IMG/VR virus record: IMGVR_UViG_3300022241_000068
DNA length: 64,000 bases
Strand: one strand, 5' to 3'
Source of the DNA: an uncultured virus (IMG/VR IMGVR_UViG_3300022241_000068)
Taxonomy: Duplodnaviria > Heunggongvirae > Uroviricota > Caudoviricetes
This document shows, one piece after another, positions 2,811 through 62,672 of this stretch. How positions within the stretch are numbered: the stretch's first letter is position 1; every line of letters starts with the position of its first letter. The notes below the pieces were generated by a model, which ran no database searches, was not told where the DNA came from, and saw only the letters and a program-made list of their open reading frames with translations. The position numbers and the translations under genes are program-made.

Positions 2811-5800
2811 TAGTAATGATGTTCTTAGTGTAAAGTTTTAAACTTGCAAATTTATCAAAAATAAATCTATATGTAAAGTAATTATCAAAAAGTATTCTAT
2901 TTTCATACGATACTTTATCCAGAGCTTTGAAATATTGTATATTTGTAGGAGACACATCTGGTAAACATGTATCATTATAATTTACAATAGGTAAATTAGA
3001 GTCACCAGTAAAGTCATAAAGCTCATTAAATCTCCATTGATTAGCTTTCCATTGTACTTCTATCTCACCTTTTCTCTCTTTTAACTTATCATATTGATTT
3101 TCTTGATCCCTTTGTTCTAGATTAATATATCCTGTAGTCTGATGAGTATTCCTTAACCAGACTTTATTGAAGGTTTCTCTCTTAAAAAGGTTAAGTCTAT
3201 CACCCTCTCTGGCTTCTGTATTTAATATAGTACCTTTGTATTTGATACCAGCAATTTCACTAGAAGGCTCTCTTGATGTAAACTCTAATATATATGGGTA
3301 ATAAGTTCCATAATATGTTTGGTAACTGTCATTATTATCATGTATCCATATAGAGTTACCATTAGAAGTGTACATATGATCTCTATCCCATATATAGAAT
3401 TGAGGAATATATGAATGATAGGATATCCAATTCTTTCTACGTAGATCATAAGATAACGTGAAAGAAGAATTTCCATCAGATTTAGTTATTAAAAATCTAT
3501 TTAACCTGGGATCCAATCCTAAAGAGTAATAATTACTACCTGGGACCTTTTCTTGTAGACAATCTTTCTTATTGCAGAATTGAATATAGTCTTTAAAGAA
3601 ATTGAACATTCCTGCTGCAGATATTTCCTCAATACCTTCTGCATATCTGTATACCTTTTTAGCATCATAATCTACCCAGAAATATCCTAAAGAAGTATTT
3701 ATACTATGATTAGGATCTGATAAACCTGCATACCCTTCTACAATACCATCAAATAAAGGCATAGGTTCACTAAGTAATCCCGCTTGTCCTAATAAGAGCT
3801 CTCCTGTAGAGGAAGGTATAGTTTGTTTACCATACTGCAGCACATACATGTTATCAGTAGTATGAGCTATAAATTGATTTTTAACTACTAACAGTTTCTT
3901 AAGCTTTCCAGAATTGGCAGGGATAGTTAATAACTGATTAGCATTAAAACTCTTATAAGAATCTGTTTCTGAAGTTAATATTTGTTTATTAGAATAATAT
4001 ATTTCATTATTTGTAAAACTATCACAATCATCACAGTCACAAGTATTGTAAGGTTCTGGCATTCCATAGAATACTTCAGTATCATTTATCTTAGAAAAGT
4101 CATTACAGTAAGCATGATAATTATCTTCAAAGTTAGTTATCTGACATCCACAATCAGAACCTTCTTCATCTGTTTTACATTGTGGAATACCTACCATCTT
4201 ATCTAAATAATCATTAGTAAATACTTGCTTATTAAGCATGTACCACATAGCATACAACATAGGAAACTCTACTAGATTCCCTACAAATTCTGTTCCAGAT
4301 GCTATATCAAATAAATTATCAATTCCTAACATAGGAAAGATAATATTTATTAAAGTTCGTATAAGAACTTTTTTAGCTACAGACCATTTAGAAGGTTGTT
4401 CTAACCTACAATAAAATCTATTGATAAAAGATTCTTCCCATGCATGAGTCTTTAACTGATAAACATCAGAATCTAACTGTAAAGGTCTTATATCAGGATA
4501 AACTACTTCTCCATTTTCTCTGGAACCTATAGCCCTATAAGCAGGGTTAACTTCAAATTCTCCCCAATATATAATTAAAGTCTTTACAACTTTTGGAAAA
4601 TAATAATCAGTTTCAGGTCCTTCAGCAGCTATTGATAATTCTCTTTTTTGAATTCTTCTATTAGGAGAATGTAATCCAGCATAATTCTTGGCATCAGCAG
4701 CATCTCTTTCTTTAGGTAAAGTTGTATGCACCCATGTTCCAAGTTCTGCTAATAAAATATCCTCTGGAGGATCACAAACGGATCTTTCTTCCTTCTTTGT
4801 AACTTCATAACCTACTGCAGCCTGTCCTCCAGGGATATCAAATTTATTACCTACTTTGTCAGATACAAAACCAGTTCTTCTGAAAGTATAAGGTCCAATA
4901 AAAATGTCCCCCACAGGACCTTGTATTGAAGAACCTTGGTTTTTGCTAGCTTGTAAAAGTGGTATATATACCAAACCAGTTAAGTCTCCATACTGATTGG
5001 GTAAGTCTCTTTTTAATGTTACATAATGAGCAGCAGCCTTTTCAATAGGTACTGCGTGATCAAATACATCACCTATAAAACTATTATCTGAACTAGAAGT
5101 CAGACCTTTAGTTAATGCTGGTAATGTACCATCAATCCATACAGAAGATTCTCTATACTTATTCATTAAAGGAATAACTCCTCCTTTAGGAGGAGAAATA
5201 ACTGAATGAGCTCTTGCGTATGTTTTATATTTTGGTTCAATAATATTTCTAGAAGCTGGAACATATTTATTTAAATTTATAAATTGTCTAGTTCCTGCTT
5301 GATCTATTCTTGTTCCATAATATTGATCATCAGGTTTTTTACCTTCAGCATATAAACCATATCTAAAACCTTCTCCATAATATTCTAATTCAGGAATAAC
5401 CTGAGTGAAGTTTAATGCTAATTTTCTAGTATTAGTATCTAAAGAATGAAAATTAAATGATCCCCCATCTAGATCAGATCCATAAAGTCTAGAACCATTT
5501 ACATCTATATTCCTATCAACTCTTTCTTTGGAATTAACAGCATGTCTTGGAAAGGCATAATACTTGTCATTGTTAGTTGCAAGAAATGTTTTAGTTGCTA
5601 GACCTTTTGCTATGATAGTTTTATTAGAGTCTGTTCTTTTTACATATAATATAGTAAAAGGATTATCGCTATCTAAAGGTTTAGACAATTCTTCTTTAGA
5701 AGGAAACTCTATGTTATCAAATCTTACACCTAATAATCTTACATAAGCATCAGATAAAGGATCTGCTTCTGGAGTTATCTTGGAAGGTACACCTGTACTC

Positions 5801-52647: not shown

Positions 52648-52998
52648 ATGAATATAATAGAATATGAACAGATTATTGCACACACTGCAGTATATCCTAA
52701 ATCAGTAGGATTAATGTATTGTGCATTAGGATTAATGGGTGAAGCTGGAGAAGTTTCAGAAAAGATTAAAAAATTAGTAAGAGATACAGATTATCTACAA
52801 ACAAAAGAATATTCTGATGAATTTAAAGAGTCTGTAAAAAAAGAATTGGGAGATGTTATTTGGTATTGTACAGCGTTAGCAAATGAATTAGACATGGGTT
52901 TATCAGAAATTATGCTAGCTAACTATGAAAAATTAATTAAAAGAAGAACCACAAACACATTACATGGATCAGGAGATAACAGAGAGGACGGTGTATAA
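52648..52998 (+). CDS. mazG: MazG-like nucleoside triphosphate pyrophosphohydrolase
   Basis: ALGLMGEAGEVSEKIKK, KELGDVIWY, N..KL..R, GSGDNR. Confidence 0.92.
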   Translation: MNIIEYEQIIAHTAVYPKSVGLMYCALGLMGEAGEVSEKIKKLVRDTDYLQTKEYSDEFKESVKKELGDVIWYCTALANELDMGLSEIMLANYEKLIKRRTTNTLHGSGDNREDGV

Positions 52999-59258: not shown

Positions 59259-59424
59259 ATGTTTAGAATTGTTTAATGAATTGGGGGTTGGATAGAAATA
59301 TCCTCCCCCCTTTTTTTTATATATTTTTAGGCATTTCTGGGAGGGAGTGTTTGTATGTGGCCAGCCCACACCCCCTATAATCCTTGGTGTGGAGAATGTC
59401 CTCCGCCCTTCTAAATTATAAAAG

Positions 59425-59694
59425 ATGAAAACTAAATCTTATGCTTGGATGAATCTTGAGTCTTTAAAAACAAAATTAGGGATGCCACGCATACCTTTTG
59501 AATTAAAGGACGGATGGCTCTCAAACTTTGACGCAGAAAAGCGTCAGAGAGTAGTGCTTGAAGAGAGTCTTTGGGACACGTTACTGACCAAAGACTTCTT
59601 AGTCAGAGAATCTGTTAAGACCTCCAGCAAGGGGGCTTATACAGAGCTCTTGATCTGTCTCCCAAAGGAGACAAGACATGACAGGATAGCGTAA
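59425..59694 (+). CDS. Hypothetical protein in a locally GC-richer segment
   Basis: 89 aa, A-rich upstream TIR; stop codon lies inside a GGATAGC-GTAA-GCTATCC hairpin. Confidence 0.65.
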   Translation: MKTKSYAWMNLESLKTKLGMPRIPFELKDGWLSNFDAEKRQRVVLEESLWDTLLTKDFLVRESVKTSSKGAYTELLICLPKETRHDRIA

Positions 59695-59701
59695 GCTATC
59701 C

Positions 59702-59740
59702 AACTCTTCCTTAAGACATAGCGTTTTAAGGAAGAGTTTT
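59702..59740 (+). terminator. Terminator-like long hairpin
   Basis: AACTCTTCCTTAAGA / TTTTAAGGAAGAGTT followed by Ts. Confidence 0.55.
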
Positions 59741-59822
59741 AATTGTGAAAAATGCTGAACATAGAAATCCCAAATGATAGGGATGGGGGTAATATATTGA
59801 ATATCTCTTCTATGTTAGTATT

Positions 59823-59939
59823 AATGCACCAGTCTTATGTAGTTATGAAGACTTCTTATTAAGAGAACTATCACAGAAGGATAGTAGCAATCCTAAAACA
59901 GGATTATAAGATGTGAAACTACCTGATTAATACAATGGC
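59823..59939 (+). repeat. Scaffold copy 1 (37-nt and 38-nt conserved arms, 42-nt unique insert)
   Basis: Arms identical to 60677-60713 and 60754-60791. Confidence 0.9.
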
Positions 59940-60529
59940 ATTTTGGTTTCTAGTGCACTTATCCCGTAAGATATGTGCATTAGTTTTTTAATGTGCTGAT
60001 AATCAGTGCATTGAAAGTAGAAAATAAGTATTGTGAATGCGTACTTATAACACAAAGCCAAAAATCACCTCTTTCAAAGATGCTATGATCATTATATTCA
60101 TGATTATAGCTAAAAGATAAAAAGTTATAATATAAATTAACTACAACACAGTAAGAAAAAAATAGTTGACTGCACTTAAAGGCAGCACTGTGTTACGCAA
60201 TCTGTAGTGAAGTTATAACTTTTAATATTTTAGTTTATTAGTATAACTATTTAAAAGATTATAAAAATATACATGATTATTTCCCATGCAAATTACTTGC
60301 CTGTGGAAAAACTACTCATTGAATAAGTAGATTTAATCATGTATTTACAATATAGTTAAATACTGTATCCATTGTATGTATTTTGTGCACAGAATGCATA
60401 GGGGTAATAAAAACTAGTACCAACGAAAAAGAGAGTAAATTTTATAGGAAGTAAGGCAGGGAGCAACCTTACGTTTTAATATCTCTCATACAGTATGTTA
60501 ACTATTATACTCACACTCACGGATATAAG

Positions 60530-60666
60530 CAAGTTGAGGTAGGCTTGGAAGTAGCCATCCTTTAAAGAGTAATCACCCCTGCATAAGGGTAAAATAGGGT
60601 ACAGAAACGCAATGAAAATTGAAAAGCAAAAACCCAAAGAGGACTTTAGGTGTAACAACACACTTG
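60530..60666 (+). ncRNA. 23S rRNA H43/H44 (uL11-binding GTPase centre)-like element with a 79-nt insertion
   Basis: CAAG..GAGGTAGGCTTGGAAGTAGCCATCCTTTAAAGAGT [insert] GTGTAACAACACACTTG, compared by eye with recalled 23S 1051-1108 sequence. Confidence 0.7.
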
Positions 60667-60676
60667 TCATTTTTTG

Positions 60677-60791
60677 AATGCACCAGTCTTATGTAGTTAT
60701 GAAGACTTCTTATAATAATTATGCCCTGATGTGAAAGGTATCATCAATATGTAGATTATAAGATGTGAAACTACCTGATTAATACAATGGC
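60677..60791 (+). repeat. Scaffold copy 2 (40-nt unique insert)
   Basis: Arms identical to copy 1. Confidence 0.9.
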
Positions 60792-61039
60792 TGCAGCCAA
60801 TTTAATACAAAGGTGAAATTCTTTGTAGTTAATCAGCTCCCAAGGATAAGCAATTATAACAGGCTCCTTTTTCTGCTGGAGTTTGGATAGGGGATTTAAA
60901 GCAGAACCACCTATTATAATTGAGTGCAGAGGGGAAATTTTTTTAAAATAAAACTTACTAATTATGATAAATATCAGATCACCAGGTTAGTTAAACTATA
61001 TATAATATAGTTAATATAATAATTTTTTTATCTAACACA

Positions 61040-61077
61040 CAGATAAGGCAGGAGATTAAATCTTGCCTTATCTTTTC
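61040..61077 (+). terminator. Hairpin/terminator just upstream of the 61092 gene
   Basis: AGATAAGGCAGGA / TCTTGCCTTATCT followed by TTT. Confidence 0.55.
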
Positions 61078-61091
61078 TAAAAAACAAAATC

Positions 61092-61310
61092 ATGAAAAAA
61101 GCATTTTTAATTTCAGTGTTTATACTTCTTTGGGCATATGCATCTGAAGTGGATATGTCATTATTTGCACAAACACCTAATACTCAACAAACCTACAAAG
61201 ATACTGATAATAAAGTTTATCAGGTACATGTAGGAAAAAAAGGAGGAATGTACATTGTAAGAACCAGTAAATCTGGAAAGACTTACAAAAAATACATTAA
61301 AAAATTATGA
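61092..61310 (+). CDS. Secreted/membrane small protein with basic-adaptor-like C-terminus
   Basis: Signal peptide; 'GKKGGMYIVRTSKSGKTYKKY' resembles the PBCV basic adaptor G.[RK]GG.Y motif. Confidence 0.55.
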   Translation: MKKAFLISVFILLWAYASEVDMSLFAQTPNTQQTYKDTDNKVYQVHVGKKGGMYIVRTSKSGKTYKKYIKKL

Positions 61311-62572: not shown

Positions 62573-62658
62573 GCTATAGTGGTGGAATTGGTAGACACGC
62601 AGGACTTAAAATCCTGTTGACAGTAATGTCAGTATAGGTTCAAGTCCTATCTATAGTA
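62573..62658 (+). tRNA. trnL: tRNA-Leu(TAA), type II, CCA not encoded
   Basis: Acceptor GCTATAG/CTATAGT, D-loop AATTGGTAGA, anticodon arm CAGGA-CTTAAAA-TCCTG, long variable arm, T-loop TTCAAGT. Confidence 0.95.
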
Positions 62659-62672
62659 CATAATTTAATATA

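What the first reader, a model, noticed from the sequence alone, without database searches (positions are those of the whole stretch)
59823..60791. Duplicated RNA scaffold with exchangeable ~40-nt insert
Seen: two elements ~850 bp apart have identical arms, AATGCACCAGTCTTATGTAGTTATGAAGACTTCTTAT (37 nt) and GATTATAAGATGTGAAACTACCTGATTAATACAATGGC (38 nt), but unrelated 42- and 40-nt middles. The arms pair with each other (TCTTAT/ATAAGA, GTAGTT/AACTAC, CCA/TGG, extended differently in each copy). The 5' arm also forms AGTCTT/AAGACT, allowing a pseudoknot or a switch. Inference: a constant scaffold with variable cargo, as in a guide, decoy or antitoxin-like RNA, or an unrecognised ribozyme/processing element. 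Copy 2 starts about 10 nt after the rRNA-mimic element.
Basis: partly seen in the sequence, partly recalled or inferred. Interest (0 to 1): 0.72.

Follow-up and report, generated by a model that had tools for sequence, protein, structure and literature searches.

The report
New structured RNA in crAss-like phages
The two repeats are one complete and one partial copy of a strongly conserved, intricately folded small RNA gene that occurs in well over a hundred uncultured phages, is missing from the RNA family catalogue, and has no known job.

Summary
Identical 37-nt and 38-nt arms flank unrelated 42- and 40-nt middles at 59823-59939 and 60677-60791, and nowhere else in the 122-kb phage genome.

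The arms are the 5' half of a larger plus-strand RNA of about 260 nt (copy 2: 60677 to about 60945). That RNA belongs to a family I found in at least 150 phage contigs. Rfam 15 has no match for it.

The fold is P1, a P2 hairpin whose loop forms a pseudoknot with the 3' tail, and P6. It is backed by compensatory changes: 13 pairs changed on both sides, reached by 0 of 500 shuffles.

Most relatives have only this core. An "expanded" form, as here, adds two arms inside the P2 loop. The insert is its tip, 31-166 nt long in the 34 relatives measured and absent from core-only members. A guide function is therefore unlikely.

Copy 1 is a fragment (5' half only) and is absent from one natural strain.

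Function is unknown. I favour a trans-acting RNA that works through its pseudoknotted core, either by binding a partner or by catalysis.

The parts
60677..60713 (+). It holds the P1 5' strand TGCAC (60679-60683), the P2 5' strand CTTAT (60688-60692), the P3 5' strand GTAG (60693-60696), an internal loop, and the P4 5' strand (60705-60713).
60714..60753 (+).
   Evidence: Its length is 31-166 nt in the 34 relatives measured (0 in L087) and its sequence is unrelated between them. The MFE fold extends P4 and caps it with a hairpin.
60754..60791 (+). It holds the P4 3' strand (60758-60766), the loop GAAA, the P3 3' strand CTAC (60771-60774), and the P5 5' strand CTGATTAAT (60775-60783).
60792..60827 (+). 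Copy 2, variable tip of arm P5.
60828..60859 (+). Copy 2, block B3. It holds the P5 3' strand (60828-60836), the joiner CTCCCAAGG with the pseudoknot strand TCCC (60838-60841), the P2 3' strand ATAAG (60846-60850), and the P6 5' strand CAATTATAA (60851-60859).
   Evidence: model R2 hit at 60818-60945, E = 5e-7
60860..60913 (+). Copy 2, variable tip of P6.
60914..60944 (+). Copy 2, block B4 and tail. It holds the P6 3' strand TTATAATTG (60914-60922), the P1 3' strand GTGCA (60924-60928), the pseudoknot strand GGGG (60931-60934), then AAA and a run of 7 T (60938-60944).
59823..59939 (+). Copy 1, a partial copy: B1 (59823-59859), its own 42-nt P4 tip (59860-59901) and B2 (59902-59939). It has no B3 or B4, so it lacks the P2 3' strand, the pseudoknot, P6 and the P1 3' strand.
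   Evidence: The family HMM matches positions 2-179 only. No second 3' domain exists in the genome. A 26.7-kb DNA contig of run X14 has 18 other letters in place of 59825-59939.
59953..60016 (+). Two strong local hairpins just after copy 1; the first is followed by a T run.
   Evidence: MFE fold, z = -4.3; sequence. These hairpins use the TAATCAG that the HMM had aligned as a P5 3' strand.

Best explanation
Shown:
- The window encodes, on the + strand, one complete gene (copy 2, 60677 to about 60945) and one 5' fragment (copy 1, 59823-59939) of a conserved structured RNA. Rfam 15 does not hold this RNA.
- The family core is a closing helix P1, a 5-bp hairpin P2 whose loop (TCCC) pairs with the 3' tail (GGGR) as a pseudoknot, and a helix P6 with a variable tip.
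- In an 'expanded' subgroup, to which this phage belongs, two further arms (P3-P4 and P5) are inserted into the P2 loop.
The insert is that arm's tip. It differs completely even between close relatives and is dispensable for the family.

Inferred:
- The RNA is an independently made, trans-acting small RNA, with one locus per phage genome and no conserved neighbouring gene.
- Its function resides in the pseudoknotted three-way-junction core. Either it binds a conserved partner (my estimate about 45%), or it is a self-processing catalytic RNA (about 20-25%).
- The peripheral tips are free to be exchanged by recombination within the conserved blocks.
- Copy 1 is a recent partial duplicate. It shares this phage's own deviations from the family consensus. 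It is most likely non-functional, or at most a spare P3-P4 arm.
For: Relatives:
- The 3'-arm word AGATGTGAAACTACCTGA gave 33 IMG/VR loci. Two were chance hits in coding DNA, one was this phage, and two pairs were duplicates.
- Related 21-mers gave 4 metagenome contigs and 3 MAG contigs.

Architecture:
- The family HMM matches 32 of 36 sources over nearly its full length.
- Of the 121 B3-selected loci, 25 are expanded, 15 start mid-model, 80 hold the 3' half only and 1 the 5' part only.
- 65 of 72 checked '3'-half' loci have TGCAC...CTCAC directly upstream, which makes them a compact core form.

Structure:
- Alignment A4 (27 sequences): 95.4% of cells paired against 30-47% when the partners are slid; 13 pairs changed on both sides, reached by 0 of 500 shuffles.
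- Alignment A6 (36 sequences, 17 of them not selected on the arm): 98% paired. P3 is A-U in 20 and G-C in 16. Double changes occur in P1, P2, P6 and the pseudoknot.
- U.G variants in P4 fit the + strand only.
- The MFE fold of 60677-60952 recovers P1, P3, P4 and P5.

Expression:
- RNA-library contigs from two studies cover 60686-60987 (X15) and 60692-60893 (X18). A further X18 contig is a different family member.

Gene-like behaviour:
- There are 1-2 tandem copies in each of 5 complete or near-complete phage records.
- The largest neighbouring protein cluster spans 4 of 33 loci.

Conservation:
- Over the four blocks (119 columns) the window is 73-89% identical to relatives, median 82%. The capsid proteins of 7 of 10 host records are only 23-30% identical to the window's.

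Copy 1:
- HMM positions 2-179 only; no partner 3' domain in the genome; absent from the X14 strain.
Against: - Function is not shown by anything here.
- The relatives were fetched with exact 18-21-mers from the most conserved blocks. Conservation of those blocks is therefore partly by construction, and the B3-selected core-form alignment shows little variation: 2 pairs with double changes, matched by 35 of 500 shuffles.
- RNA-library contigs cannot give strand, ends or level, and such libraries can carry DNA.
- No promoter consensus is shared upstream of the members.
- The 100% identity of 75 arm positions between the two copies, beside a totally different middle, is not explained by simple duplication followed by drift. 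It needs either tip replacement by recombination or selection on the arms.
- The family may have been described somewhere I could not search. My literature check was four sequence strings and three word searches.
Confidence: 0.8

Rival explanations
1. The arms are a constant scaffold and the roughly 40-nt middle is programmable cargo (guide, decoy or antitoxin) that recognises a target by complementarity.
For: The tips are unrelated between copies with identical arms. They are also swapped independently between close relatives: L091 and L103 share a P5 tip but differ in their P4 and P6 tips. In L089 a variable tip carries a copy of a 23S rRNA segment.
Against: - Tip length ranges from 31 to 166 nt.
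- The whole arm is absent in 80 of 121 sampled loci and reduced to a plain hairpin in L113 and L171.
- Neither insert matches the phage genome beyond 12 nt, E >= 0.17.
- No conserved protein gene lies beside the RNA to act as an effector.
- I could not search the inserts against host genomes.
Confidence: 0.05
2. The conserved core is a new self-cleaving or self-processing ribozyme that trims its own transcript. This is a sub-case of the best explanation's mechanism.
For: - The core is compact and pseudoknotted, with many invariant unpaired nucleotides and a variable-length hairpin.
- It sits in intergenic phage contexts without a gene association.
- Tandem head-to-tail copies occur in some loci.
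- Hatchet ribozymes lie 0.8-1.5 kb upstream on the same strand in L093 and L099.
- Weak hint: RNA-library contigs of two studies begin at 60686 and 60692 with no loose end, whereas a DNA contig runs through. That place is also where the repeated arm would break an assembly.
Against: - There is no match to any known ribozyme model.
- No cleavage site can be named.
- In L137 and L164 another conserved motif directly abuts the RNA start, so a 5' end could equally be a transcription start.
- The profile fits protein-binding RNAs equally well.
Confidence: 0.2
3. It is a cis-acting leader, such as a riboswitch, a nut/put-like antiterminator or a processing hairpin, that controls the genes downstream of each copy.
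For: Each copy is followed by terminator-like structures: 59953-59982 plus a T run after copy 1, and a T run at 60938-60944 after copy 2. Small ORFs start at 61092.
Against: - The downstream and upstream genes of relatives are not conserved.
- There is only one locus per genome.
- Only 4 of 144 motif instances have an in-frame upstream ORF of at least 60 codons ending in the motif.
- The X14 strain lacks copy 1 but keeps the flanks.
Confidence: 0.08
4. It is a DNA-level element: a recombination site, hairpin promoter, origin or miniature mobile element.
For: Copy 1 is a precise presence/absence polymorphism whose ends coincide with the repeat ends. The IMG/VR contig of the same phage breaks 27 nt before copy 2.
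Against: - Helices accept U.G but not the A.C that the other strand would carry, and there are compensatory changes in six helices.
- There are no terminal inverted repeats and no target duplication.
- No recombinase or transposase domain was found among the 63 ORFs scanned with Pfam.
- The contig break is what a 37-nt repeat does to an assembler.
Confidence: 0.03
5. Copy 1 is functional as half of a two-piece RNA. Its 5' domain would pair in trans (P1, P2, P5) with the single 3' domain of copy 2, giving alternative assemblies with different P4 tips.
For: - Copy 1 keeps all 5' strands of P1, P2 and P5 unchanged.
- Other phages carry extra stand-alone 3' halves next to a full copy: L092, L069, and more weakly L071, L093, L099 and L094.
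- In L088 the two halves lie about 580 nt apart.
- Copy 1 is unchanged in the X15 strain, whose neighbouring ORF has diverged.
Against: - The X14 strain does without copy 1.
- The copy 1 region prefers other local folds.
- It is the only clear stand-alone 5' half among the roughly 157 loci examined. L107 and L153 may hold another, cut by the locus end.
Confidence: 0.1

Closest known systems
GOLLD and ROOL RNAs (large ornate phage/prophage RNAs; Rfam; PMC5737381 and PMC12286853 seen as search listings and abstracts only)
   Same: Both are phage-borne, independently encoded RNAs with a complex conserved fold and pseudoknot(s). Both are sometimes near tRNA genes, and neither has an assigned function.
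   Different: This RNA is much smaller: a core of roughly 66 conserved nt, and 230-420 nt with its arms. The Rfam models gave no match even at E <= 10. tRNA or tmRNA genes were called within 3 kb in only 7 of 35 loci scanned with ARAGORN.
Small self-cleaving ribozymes found in phage-like metagenome contexts (hatchet, pistol, twister-sister)
   Same: Shared features are a compact pseudoknotted core, invariant junction nucleotides, variable-length hairpins and intergenic phage neighbourhoods. Hatchet occurs in two of the same loci.
   Different: No model matches. The order of helices I derived (P1, then a P2 hairpin whose loop pairs with the 3' tail, then P6 inside P1) does not match my recollection of the HDV-like or pistol topologies. 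That comparison is recalled, not tested. Cleavage is untested.
phi29 prohead (packaging) RNA
   Same: It is a single-locus phage RNA built on a three-way junction with peripheral loops, and it acts in trans with phage proteins (recalled).
   Different: There is no sequence or model match (Rfam). The host phages here are crAss-like, not phi29-like. Nothing here links the RNA to packaging.
CRISPR mini-arrays / guide-RNA scaffolds
   Same: Both have constant flanks around a variable segment of about 40 nt.
   Different: The two flanks are not repeats of each other. The variable segment is structured, varies 5-fold in length and is dispensable. There is no neighbouring effector gene.
Exoribonuclease-resistant RNAs of flaviviruses (three-way junction plus a pseudoknot between a hairpin loop and the 3' tail)
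   Same: The topology is similar as I recall it.
   Different: The likeness is recalled only. There is no sequence relation, and the biological setting is different. Not tested.

Membership tests
The RNA family defined here (unnamed) | Four conserved blocks B1-B4 in order, recognised by the family HMM over its full length | tested here: met
   Copy 2: HMM positions 3-284 of 286, 142.6 bits, E = 5.7e-43. Copy 1: positions 2-179 only, so it is a fragment.
The RNA family defined here (unnamed) | Core helices P1, P2 and P6, plus the pseudoknot between the P2-loop TCCC and the 3' GGGR | tested here: met
   Copy 2 forms all of them. Model R2 hits 60818-60945 at E = 5e-7. Copy 1 lacks every 3' partner strand.
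The RNA family defined here (unnamed) | The helices are maintained by compensatory change across members | tested here: met
   13 pairs have changes on both sides, reached by 0 of 500 shuffles, and 95-98% of cells are paired against 30-47% when slid. Caveat: the members were fetched with exact words from B2 or B3.
Any Rfam 15 family | A covariance-model match at or near the gathering score | tested here: not met
   The window at gathering threshold gave only a tRNA. 59300-61300 at E <= 10 gave nothing credible. In 43 related loci no family overlapped the RNA.
CRISPR repeat-spacer-repeat unit | The flanks are copies of one repeat | tested here: not met
   The 5' and 3' arms are different sequences.
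tRNA / tmRNA | Cloverleaf or tRNA-like domain found by ARAGORN or Rfam | tested here: not met
   The only tRNA in the window is tRNA-Leu(taa) at 62573-62659.
Kink-turn / box C/D-like motif in the P3-P4 internal loop | A 3-nt bulge followed by tandem sheared G.A pairs beside a regular helix | tested here: inconclusive
   By eye the window loop ATGAAG / GA(AA) resembles one, but the family consensus is ATATAAAG / GAAA. No structural test was possible.
Ribosomal RNA mimic (for the main RNA, not the neighbouring 23S-like piece) | Significant similarity to 16S or 23S rRNA | tested here: not met
   The family HMM against E. coli 16S, 23S and 5S gave no hit. blastn-short gave only 11-16-nt words in single members. 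Only E. coli rRNA was available.
Miniature transposable element | Terminal inverted repeats and a target-site duplication | tested here: not met
   The outer ends are not inverted repeats, and the flanks of the two copies share nothing.

The most novel reading that the evidence does not exclude
The family is a new class of functional RNA specific to crAss-like and related environmental phages. It would be either a new catalytic (self-processing) RNA or a modular display scaffold. In the scaffold reading, the conserved pseudoknotted core docks on a conserved host machine while the exchangeable arms carry add-on modules. One such module is the copy of the 23S rRNA 1062-1088 region that sits inside arm P5 in L089 and just upstream of the RNA in this window. 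That would point to interference with host translation.
Probability: 0.2. Interest if true: 0.92.

Novelty: categorically new. Interest (0 to 1): 0.78.

Why it matters
- Complex, pseudoknotted RNAs whose sequence is conserved far better than the proteins of the genomes that carry them have usually turned out to be ribozymes, riboswitches or parts of central machines.
- This one occurs in well over a hundred uncultured phage contigs, many of them crAss-like genomes of 80-130 kb. It has a clean modular series: core, core plus a hairpin and one arm, and core plus two arms. It is not in Rfam.
- It gives RNA biologists a well-defined new target with ready-made natural variants for structure and function work.
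- It gives phage biologists a marker gene of an unexplored early-region function.
- It shows that "identical arms with unrelated middle" repeats in phage DNA can flag peripheral arms of larger RNAs rather than guide systems.

Tried and rejected
- **Exact-word scans that found only this phage or chance hits:** a 29-mer and a 21-mer of the arms in IMG/VR. A 15-mer gave 52 chance loci plus this phage's own contig.
- **Gapped two-anchor pattern:** it found nothing in metagenome or genome contigs, because relatives differ in the 5' anchor.
- **Protein routes to relatives:** the 279-aa and 89-aa neighbouring proteins led only to this phage or to an unrelated contig, L065.
- **GenBank phages (INPHARED):** no match to the 2-kb region, to copy 2, or to a core-form member. 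**E. coli genomes:** none.
- **Minus-strand reading:** with only the two window copies the minus strand seemed to fold better, 26 against 21 pairs. I dropped this once relatives showed that the 3' arm pairs with downstream sequence and that the U.G variants fit the + strand.
- **Promoter search:** sigma-70-like sites are at chance level, 9 found against 8.2 expected. No shared motif lies upstream of members.
- **rRNA mimicry of the main RNA:** not supported.
- **Stop-codon or recoding signal at the TAA inside P6:** 4 of 144.
- **Targets of the inserts within the phage genome:** none.
- **30-letter loose end of an X18 contig:** not in IMG/VR.
- **Uncovered stretches in RNA libraries:** 59970-60505, 60573-60639 and 61042-61300 have no RNA-library contig in X15 or X18. 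The tool warns that holes prove nothing, so I draw no conclusion from them.
- **Literature:** word searches and passages of two papers gave nothing on this RNA.
Full report
**1.
The 37-nt and 38-nt arms are each present exactly twice in the window, at 59823-59859 / 60677-60713 and 59902-59939 / 60754-60791. They are 100% identical between copies. With up to 3 mismatches there is no other copy, and no shuffle produced two matches. The middles (42 and 40 nt) are unrelated.

The window is part of a phage genome. It carries terminase, portal and major head protein genes on the minus strand. Replication and nucleotide-metabolism genes typical of crAss-like phages lie further on. Its capsid protein is about 30% identical to those of Flavobacterium FpV4-type and crAss-like phages.

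An IMG/VR contig of the same phage (G002) starts at window 60650, and its end overlaps window 1-24591. The genome is therefore circularly permuted and 122,361 bp long. In that whole genome blastn-short, a covariance model and a family HMM find only these two copies.

The copies lie in a 1.4-kb stretch (59700-61090) with no credible ORF, between small plus-strand genes.

**2. Natural variants and RNA libraries.**
The stretch occurs in sludge and wastewater metagenomes of 11 studies. I laid four runs on 59300-61300.
- A 26.7-kb DNA contig of run X14 has 18 other letters in place of 59825-59939. That is copy 1, to within two bases of its ends. The same contig also lacks 60157-60530 but keeps copy 2 unchanged.
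- An RNA-library contig of X15 carries copy 1 without any difference, although the ORF upstream of it has diverged beyond 85% identity in two segments.
- RNA-library contigs of two studies carry copy 2 together with the 200 nt after it (X15: 60686-60783 and 60754-60987; X18: 60692-60893).
- A further X18 contig joins a different upstream sequence to 59907-59934 and then to 60829-60852. This was the first sign of a relative.
- Contigs show presence in RNA libraries only. They do not give strand, ends or level.

**3. Relatives.**
Exact words of 15-29 nt and a gapped two-anchor pattern found nothing beyond this phage. A 21-mer from the centre of the 3' arm then found four metagenome contigs. A shifted 21-mer found three MAG contigs. 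An 18-mer found 33 IMG/VR loci. Of those 33, two are chance hits in coding DNA, one is this phage, and two pairs are duplicates.

These loci share nothing with the window except the element and, unexpectedly, two further blocks downstream of it.

**4. The real unit and its fold.**
Members have four conserved blocks (consensus):
- B1: TTAATGCACCAnAACTCACGTAGATATAAAGACTTCTTA
- B2: TAAGATGTGAAACTACCTGATTAAT
- B3: TTAATCAGCTCCCAAGGGTGAGCAGTTGTAAT
- B4: ATTACAACTGAGTGCAGAGGG

They are separated by three variable stretches. In the 34 relatives with all four blocks these measure 31-166, 31-155 and 29-97 nt. In one of them (L087) the first is 0.

RNAalifold and inspection give a fully nested fold plus one pseudoknot:
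- P1: TGCAC with GTGCA.
- P2: CTCAC with GTGAG.
- P3: GTAG with CTAC.
- An internal loop.
- P4: ACTTCTTA with TAAGATGT, closed by variable tip 1.
- P5: CTGATTAAT with ATTAATCAG, closed by tip 2.
- A joiner, CTCCCAAGG.
- P6: CAGTTGTAAT with ATTACAACTG, closed by tip 3.
- A 3' tail, GAGGGR, whose GGGR pairs with the TCCC of the joiner.

On 27 members, 95.4% of cells are paired, against 30-47% when the partners are slid. 13 pairs show changes on both sides, which 0 of 500 shuffles reach.

On 36 members, 17 of them fetched with a B3 word and so not selected on the arms, 98% are paired. P3 carries A-U in 20 and G-C in 16. P1, P2, P6 and the pseudoknot (C-G to A-U) also show double changes. P4 varies by C-G to U-G, which fits the plus strand only.

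The MFE fold of 60677-60952 recovers P1, P3, P4 and P5.

Two of the pairings he named are genuine conserved helices (P4 and P3). His CCA/TGG pair and his alternative AGTCTT/AAGACT hairpin are not conserved. His insert is tip 1.

**5. A graded family.**
With the family HMM, 25 of these are expanded like the window, 15 begin mid-model, 1 holds the 5' part only, and 80 match only the 3' half.

Looking at the 3'-half class, 65 of 72 have TGCAC...CTCAC directly in front of TTCCCAAGGGTGAG. They are a compact core form: P1, a P2 hairpin whose 9-nt loop makes the pseudoknot, and P6.

Intermediate members (L113, L171) have P5 and a plain P3 hairpin with no P4.

The expanded form therefore arises by insertion of two arms into the P2 loop.

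Tips are exchanged independently. L091 and L103 share tip 2 but differ in tips 1 and 3. The conserved blocks offer obvious homology for such exchange between co-infecting phages. That mechanism is inference.

**6. The two window copies.**
- Copy 2 is a complete expanded member: HMM positions 3-284 at 60674-60937, and a core-model hit at 60818-60945. Its tail is followed by seven T at 60938-60944.
- Copy 1 matches HMM positions 2-179 only. There is no second 3' half anywhere in the genome. The TAATCAG that the HMM took for its P5 partner is buried in one of two strong local hairpins at 59953-60016.
- Both copies share this phage's own departures from the family consensus in B1, for example CCAGTCTTATGTAGTTATGAAG where the consensus has CCAnAACTCACGTAGATATAAAG. 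They are therefore recent duplicates of each other. Tip 1 has since been replaced.
- One strain lacks copy 1.
- I read copy 1 as a partial duplicate that is probably non-functional. A trans-assembly with the single 3' half cannot be excluded.

**7. Distribution and context.**
- Five complete or near-complete records hold one locus each, with one or two tandem copies.
- Seven of ten large records encode a capsid protein only 23-30% identical to the window's. One record is a 345-kb phage without such a match.
- Over the four blocks the RNA is 73-89% identical to the window's, median 82%. Part of this is by construction of the searches.
- No neighbouring protein family is shared by more than 4 of 33 loci.
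- tRNA or tmRNA genes were called within 3 kb in 7 of 35 loci scanned with ARAGORN.
- Rfam adds a tmRNA-like match and a group I intron in L067, and Hatchet ribozymes upstream on the same strand in L093 and L099.
- No Rfam family overlaps the RNA in any locus.
- GenBank phages hold no copy detectable by blastn.
- Four sequence strings are absent from the searchable literature.

**8. How it most likely works.**
Shown: it is a plus-strand structured RNA with a conserved pseudoknotted three-way-junction core. It has one locus per genome and no fixed neighbouring gene, and it is present in RNA libraries.

Inferred: it is a trans-acting RNA gene whose core is the business end. High sequence conservation, even inside helices and across phages with very different proteins, points in one of two directions:
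- Recognition of a conserved partner, such as a host machine or a conserved phage protein. I put this at about 45%.
- Catalysis or self-processing. I put this at about 20-25%. The context resembles that of small self-cleaving ribozymes, and Hatchet occurs nearby.

A cis-regulatory role, a DNA-level role and the guide/decoy model are each unlikely, for the reasons given under the rival explanations.

The tips look like tolerated, rapidly exchanged decorations. The exception that keeps the bolder reading alive is L089. Its tip 2 contains a copy of the 23S rRNA segment that, in the window, lies just upstream of copy 2. There, 60542-60568 matches E. coli 23S 1062-1088 at 24 of 27 positions.

**9. 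Limits.**
- Members were fetched with exact words, so the family's true breadth and the conservation of B2 and B3 are not measured without bias.
- Hosts are unknown.
- Only E. coli rRNA was available for the mimicry test.
- Strand and ends rest on covariation and weak assembly hints, not on reads.
- Supplements of the papers seen were not consulted.

Noticed in passing
window 60531-60600 (core 60542-60568): This piece matches E. coli 23S rRNA 1062-1088 at 24 of 27 positions (GGCTTGGAAGTAGCCATCCTTTAAAGA). From memory, that region is the uL11-binding GTPase-associated centre. True rRNA contigs of other organisms pile up on 60536-60570 in all four runs. A similar piece lies inside arm P5 of the family member in L089.
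   Followed up: partly
window 60157-60530: A 374-nt stretch is absent from the 26.7-kb contig of DNA run X14 (joint 60156 to 60531). That removes most of the 64-aa minus-strand ORF at 60476-60670, which is therefore unlikely to be a gene. The noncoding region is built of optional modules.
   Followed up: partly
L118, L120, L123, L125, L131, L137, L145, L164 and others (roughly 30 of 157 loci): A second highly conserved motif, CAAGGGTTGCAACCTTGTGAGAGTAC (a hairpin plus a tail), lies 30-690 nt upstream of the RNA on the same strand. In L137 and L164 it directly abuts the RNA start. A 16-mer of it occurs only once per genome in 3 of 5 records tested. It is not in the window. It may be a dedicated promoter or a partner element.
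   Followed up: partly
L093:1319-1472 and L099:2004-2167: Hatchet ribozymes (79.9 and 64.1 bits; gathering score 51) lie 0.8-1.5 kb upstream of the RNA on the same strand.
   Followed up: no
L073:4082-4470; L067:3477-3982: L073 has a phage-encoded tmRNA (ARAGORN, tag APKAVELRLAA). L067 has a tmRNA-like match (38.9 bits, below the gathering score of 47) that overlaps a group I intron (91 bits). This may be an intron-interrupted tmRNA gene. Both lie 1-2 kb downstream of the RNA.
   Followed up: no
L075:1745-1822 (the same sequence as L090): A tRNA with anticodon TTA (reads UAA) lies about 1.2 kb from the RNA. It suggests stop-codon reassignment in that phage.
   Followed up: no
L088 (oriented): 2755-2925 and 3502-3627: The two halves of the RNA are separated by about 580 nt. 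After TTAATCAGCTCCCAA comes a hairpin and other sequence. This is either an insertion into the RNA gene or a two-piece version.
   Followed up: no
L092, L069, L071, L093, L099, L094; 15 of 121 loci: Extra stand-alone 3' halves or core-form copies lie within about 1 kb of a full copy. In some loci (L127, L109) the next copy starts a few nt after the tail, forming a tandem array.
   Followed up: partly
Whole phage genome (window plus G002); L061:13812-14225; window 52648-52998: The genome is 122,361 bp and circularly permuted in the assemblies. One ORF of about 5,400 codons (full-genome coordinates 103747-120063) lies outside the window. A dATP/dGTP diphosphohydrolase N-terminal domain and a MazG domain hint at modified DNA bases.
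   Followed up: no
IMG/VR contig ends: Many contigs that carry the RNA begin or end within 3 kb of it, including the contig of this phage, which starts 27 nt before copy 2. Repeats and hypervariable tips at this locus probably break assemblies, or the locus may lie near true genome ends.
   Followed up: no
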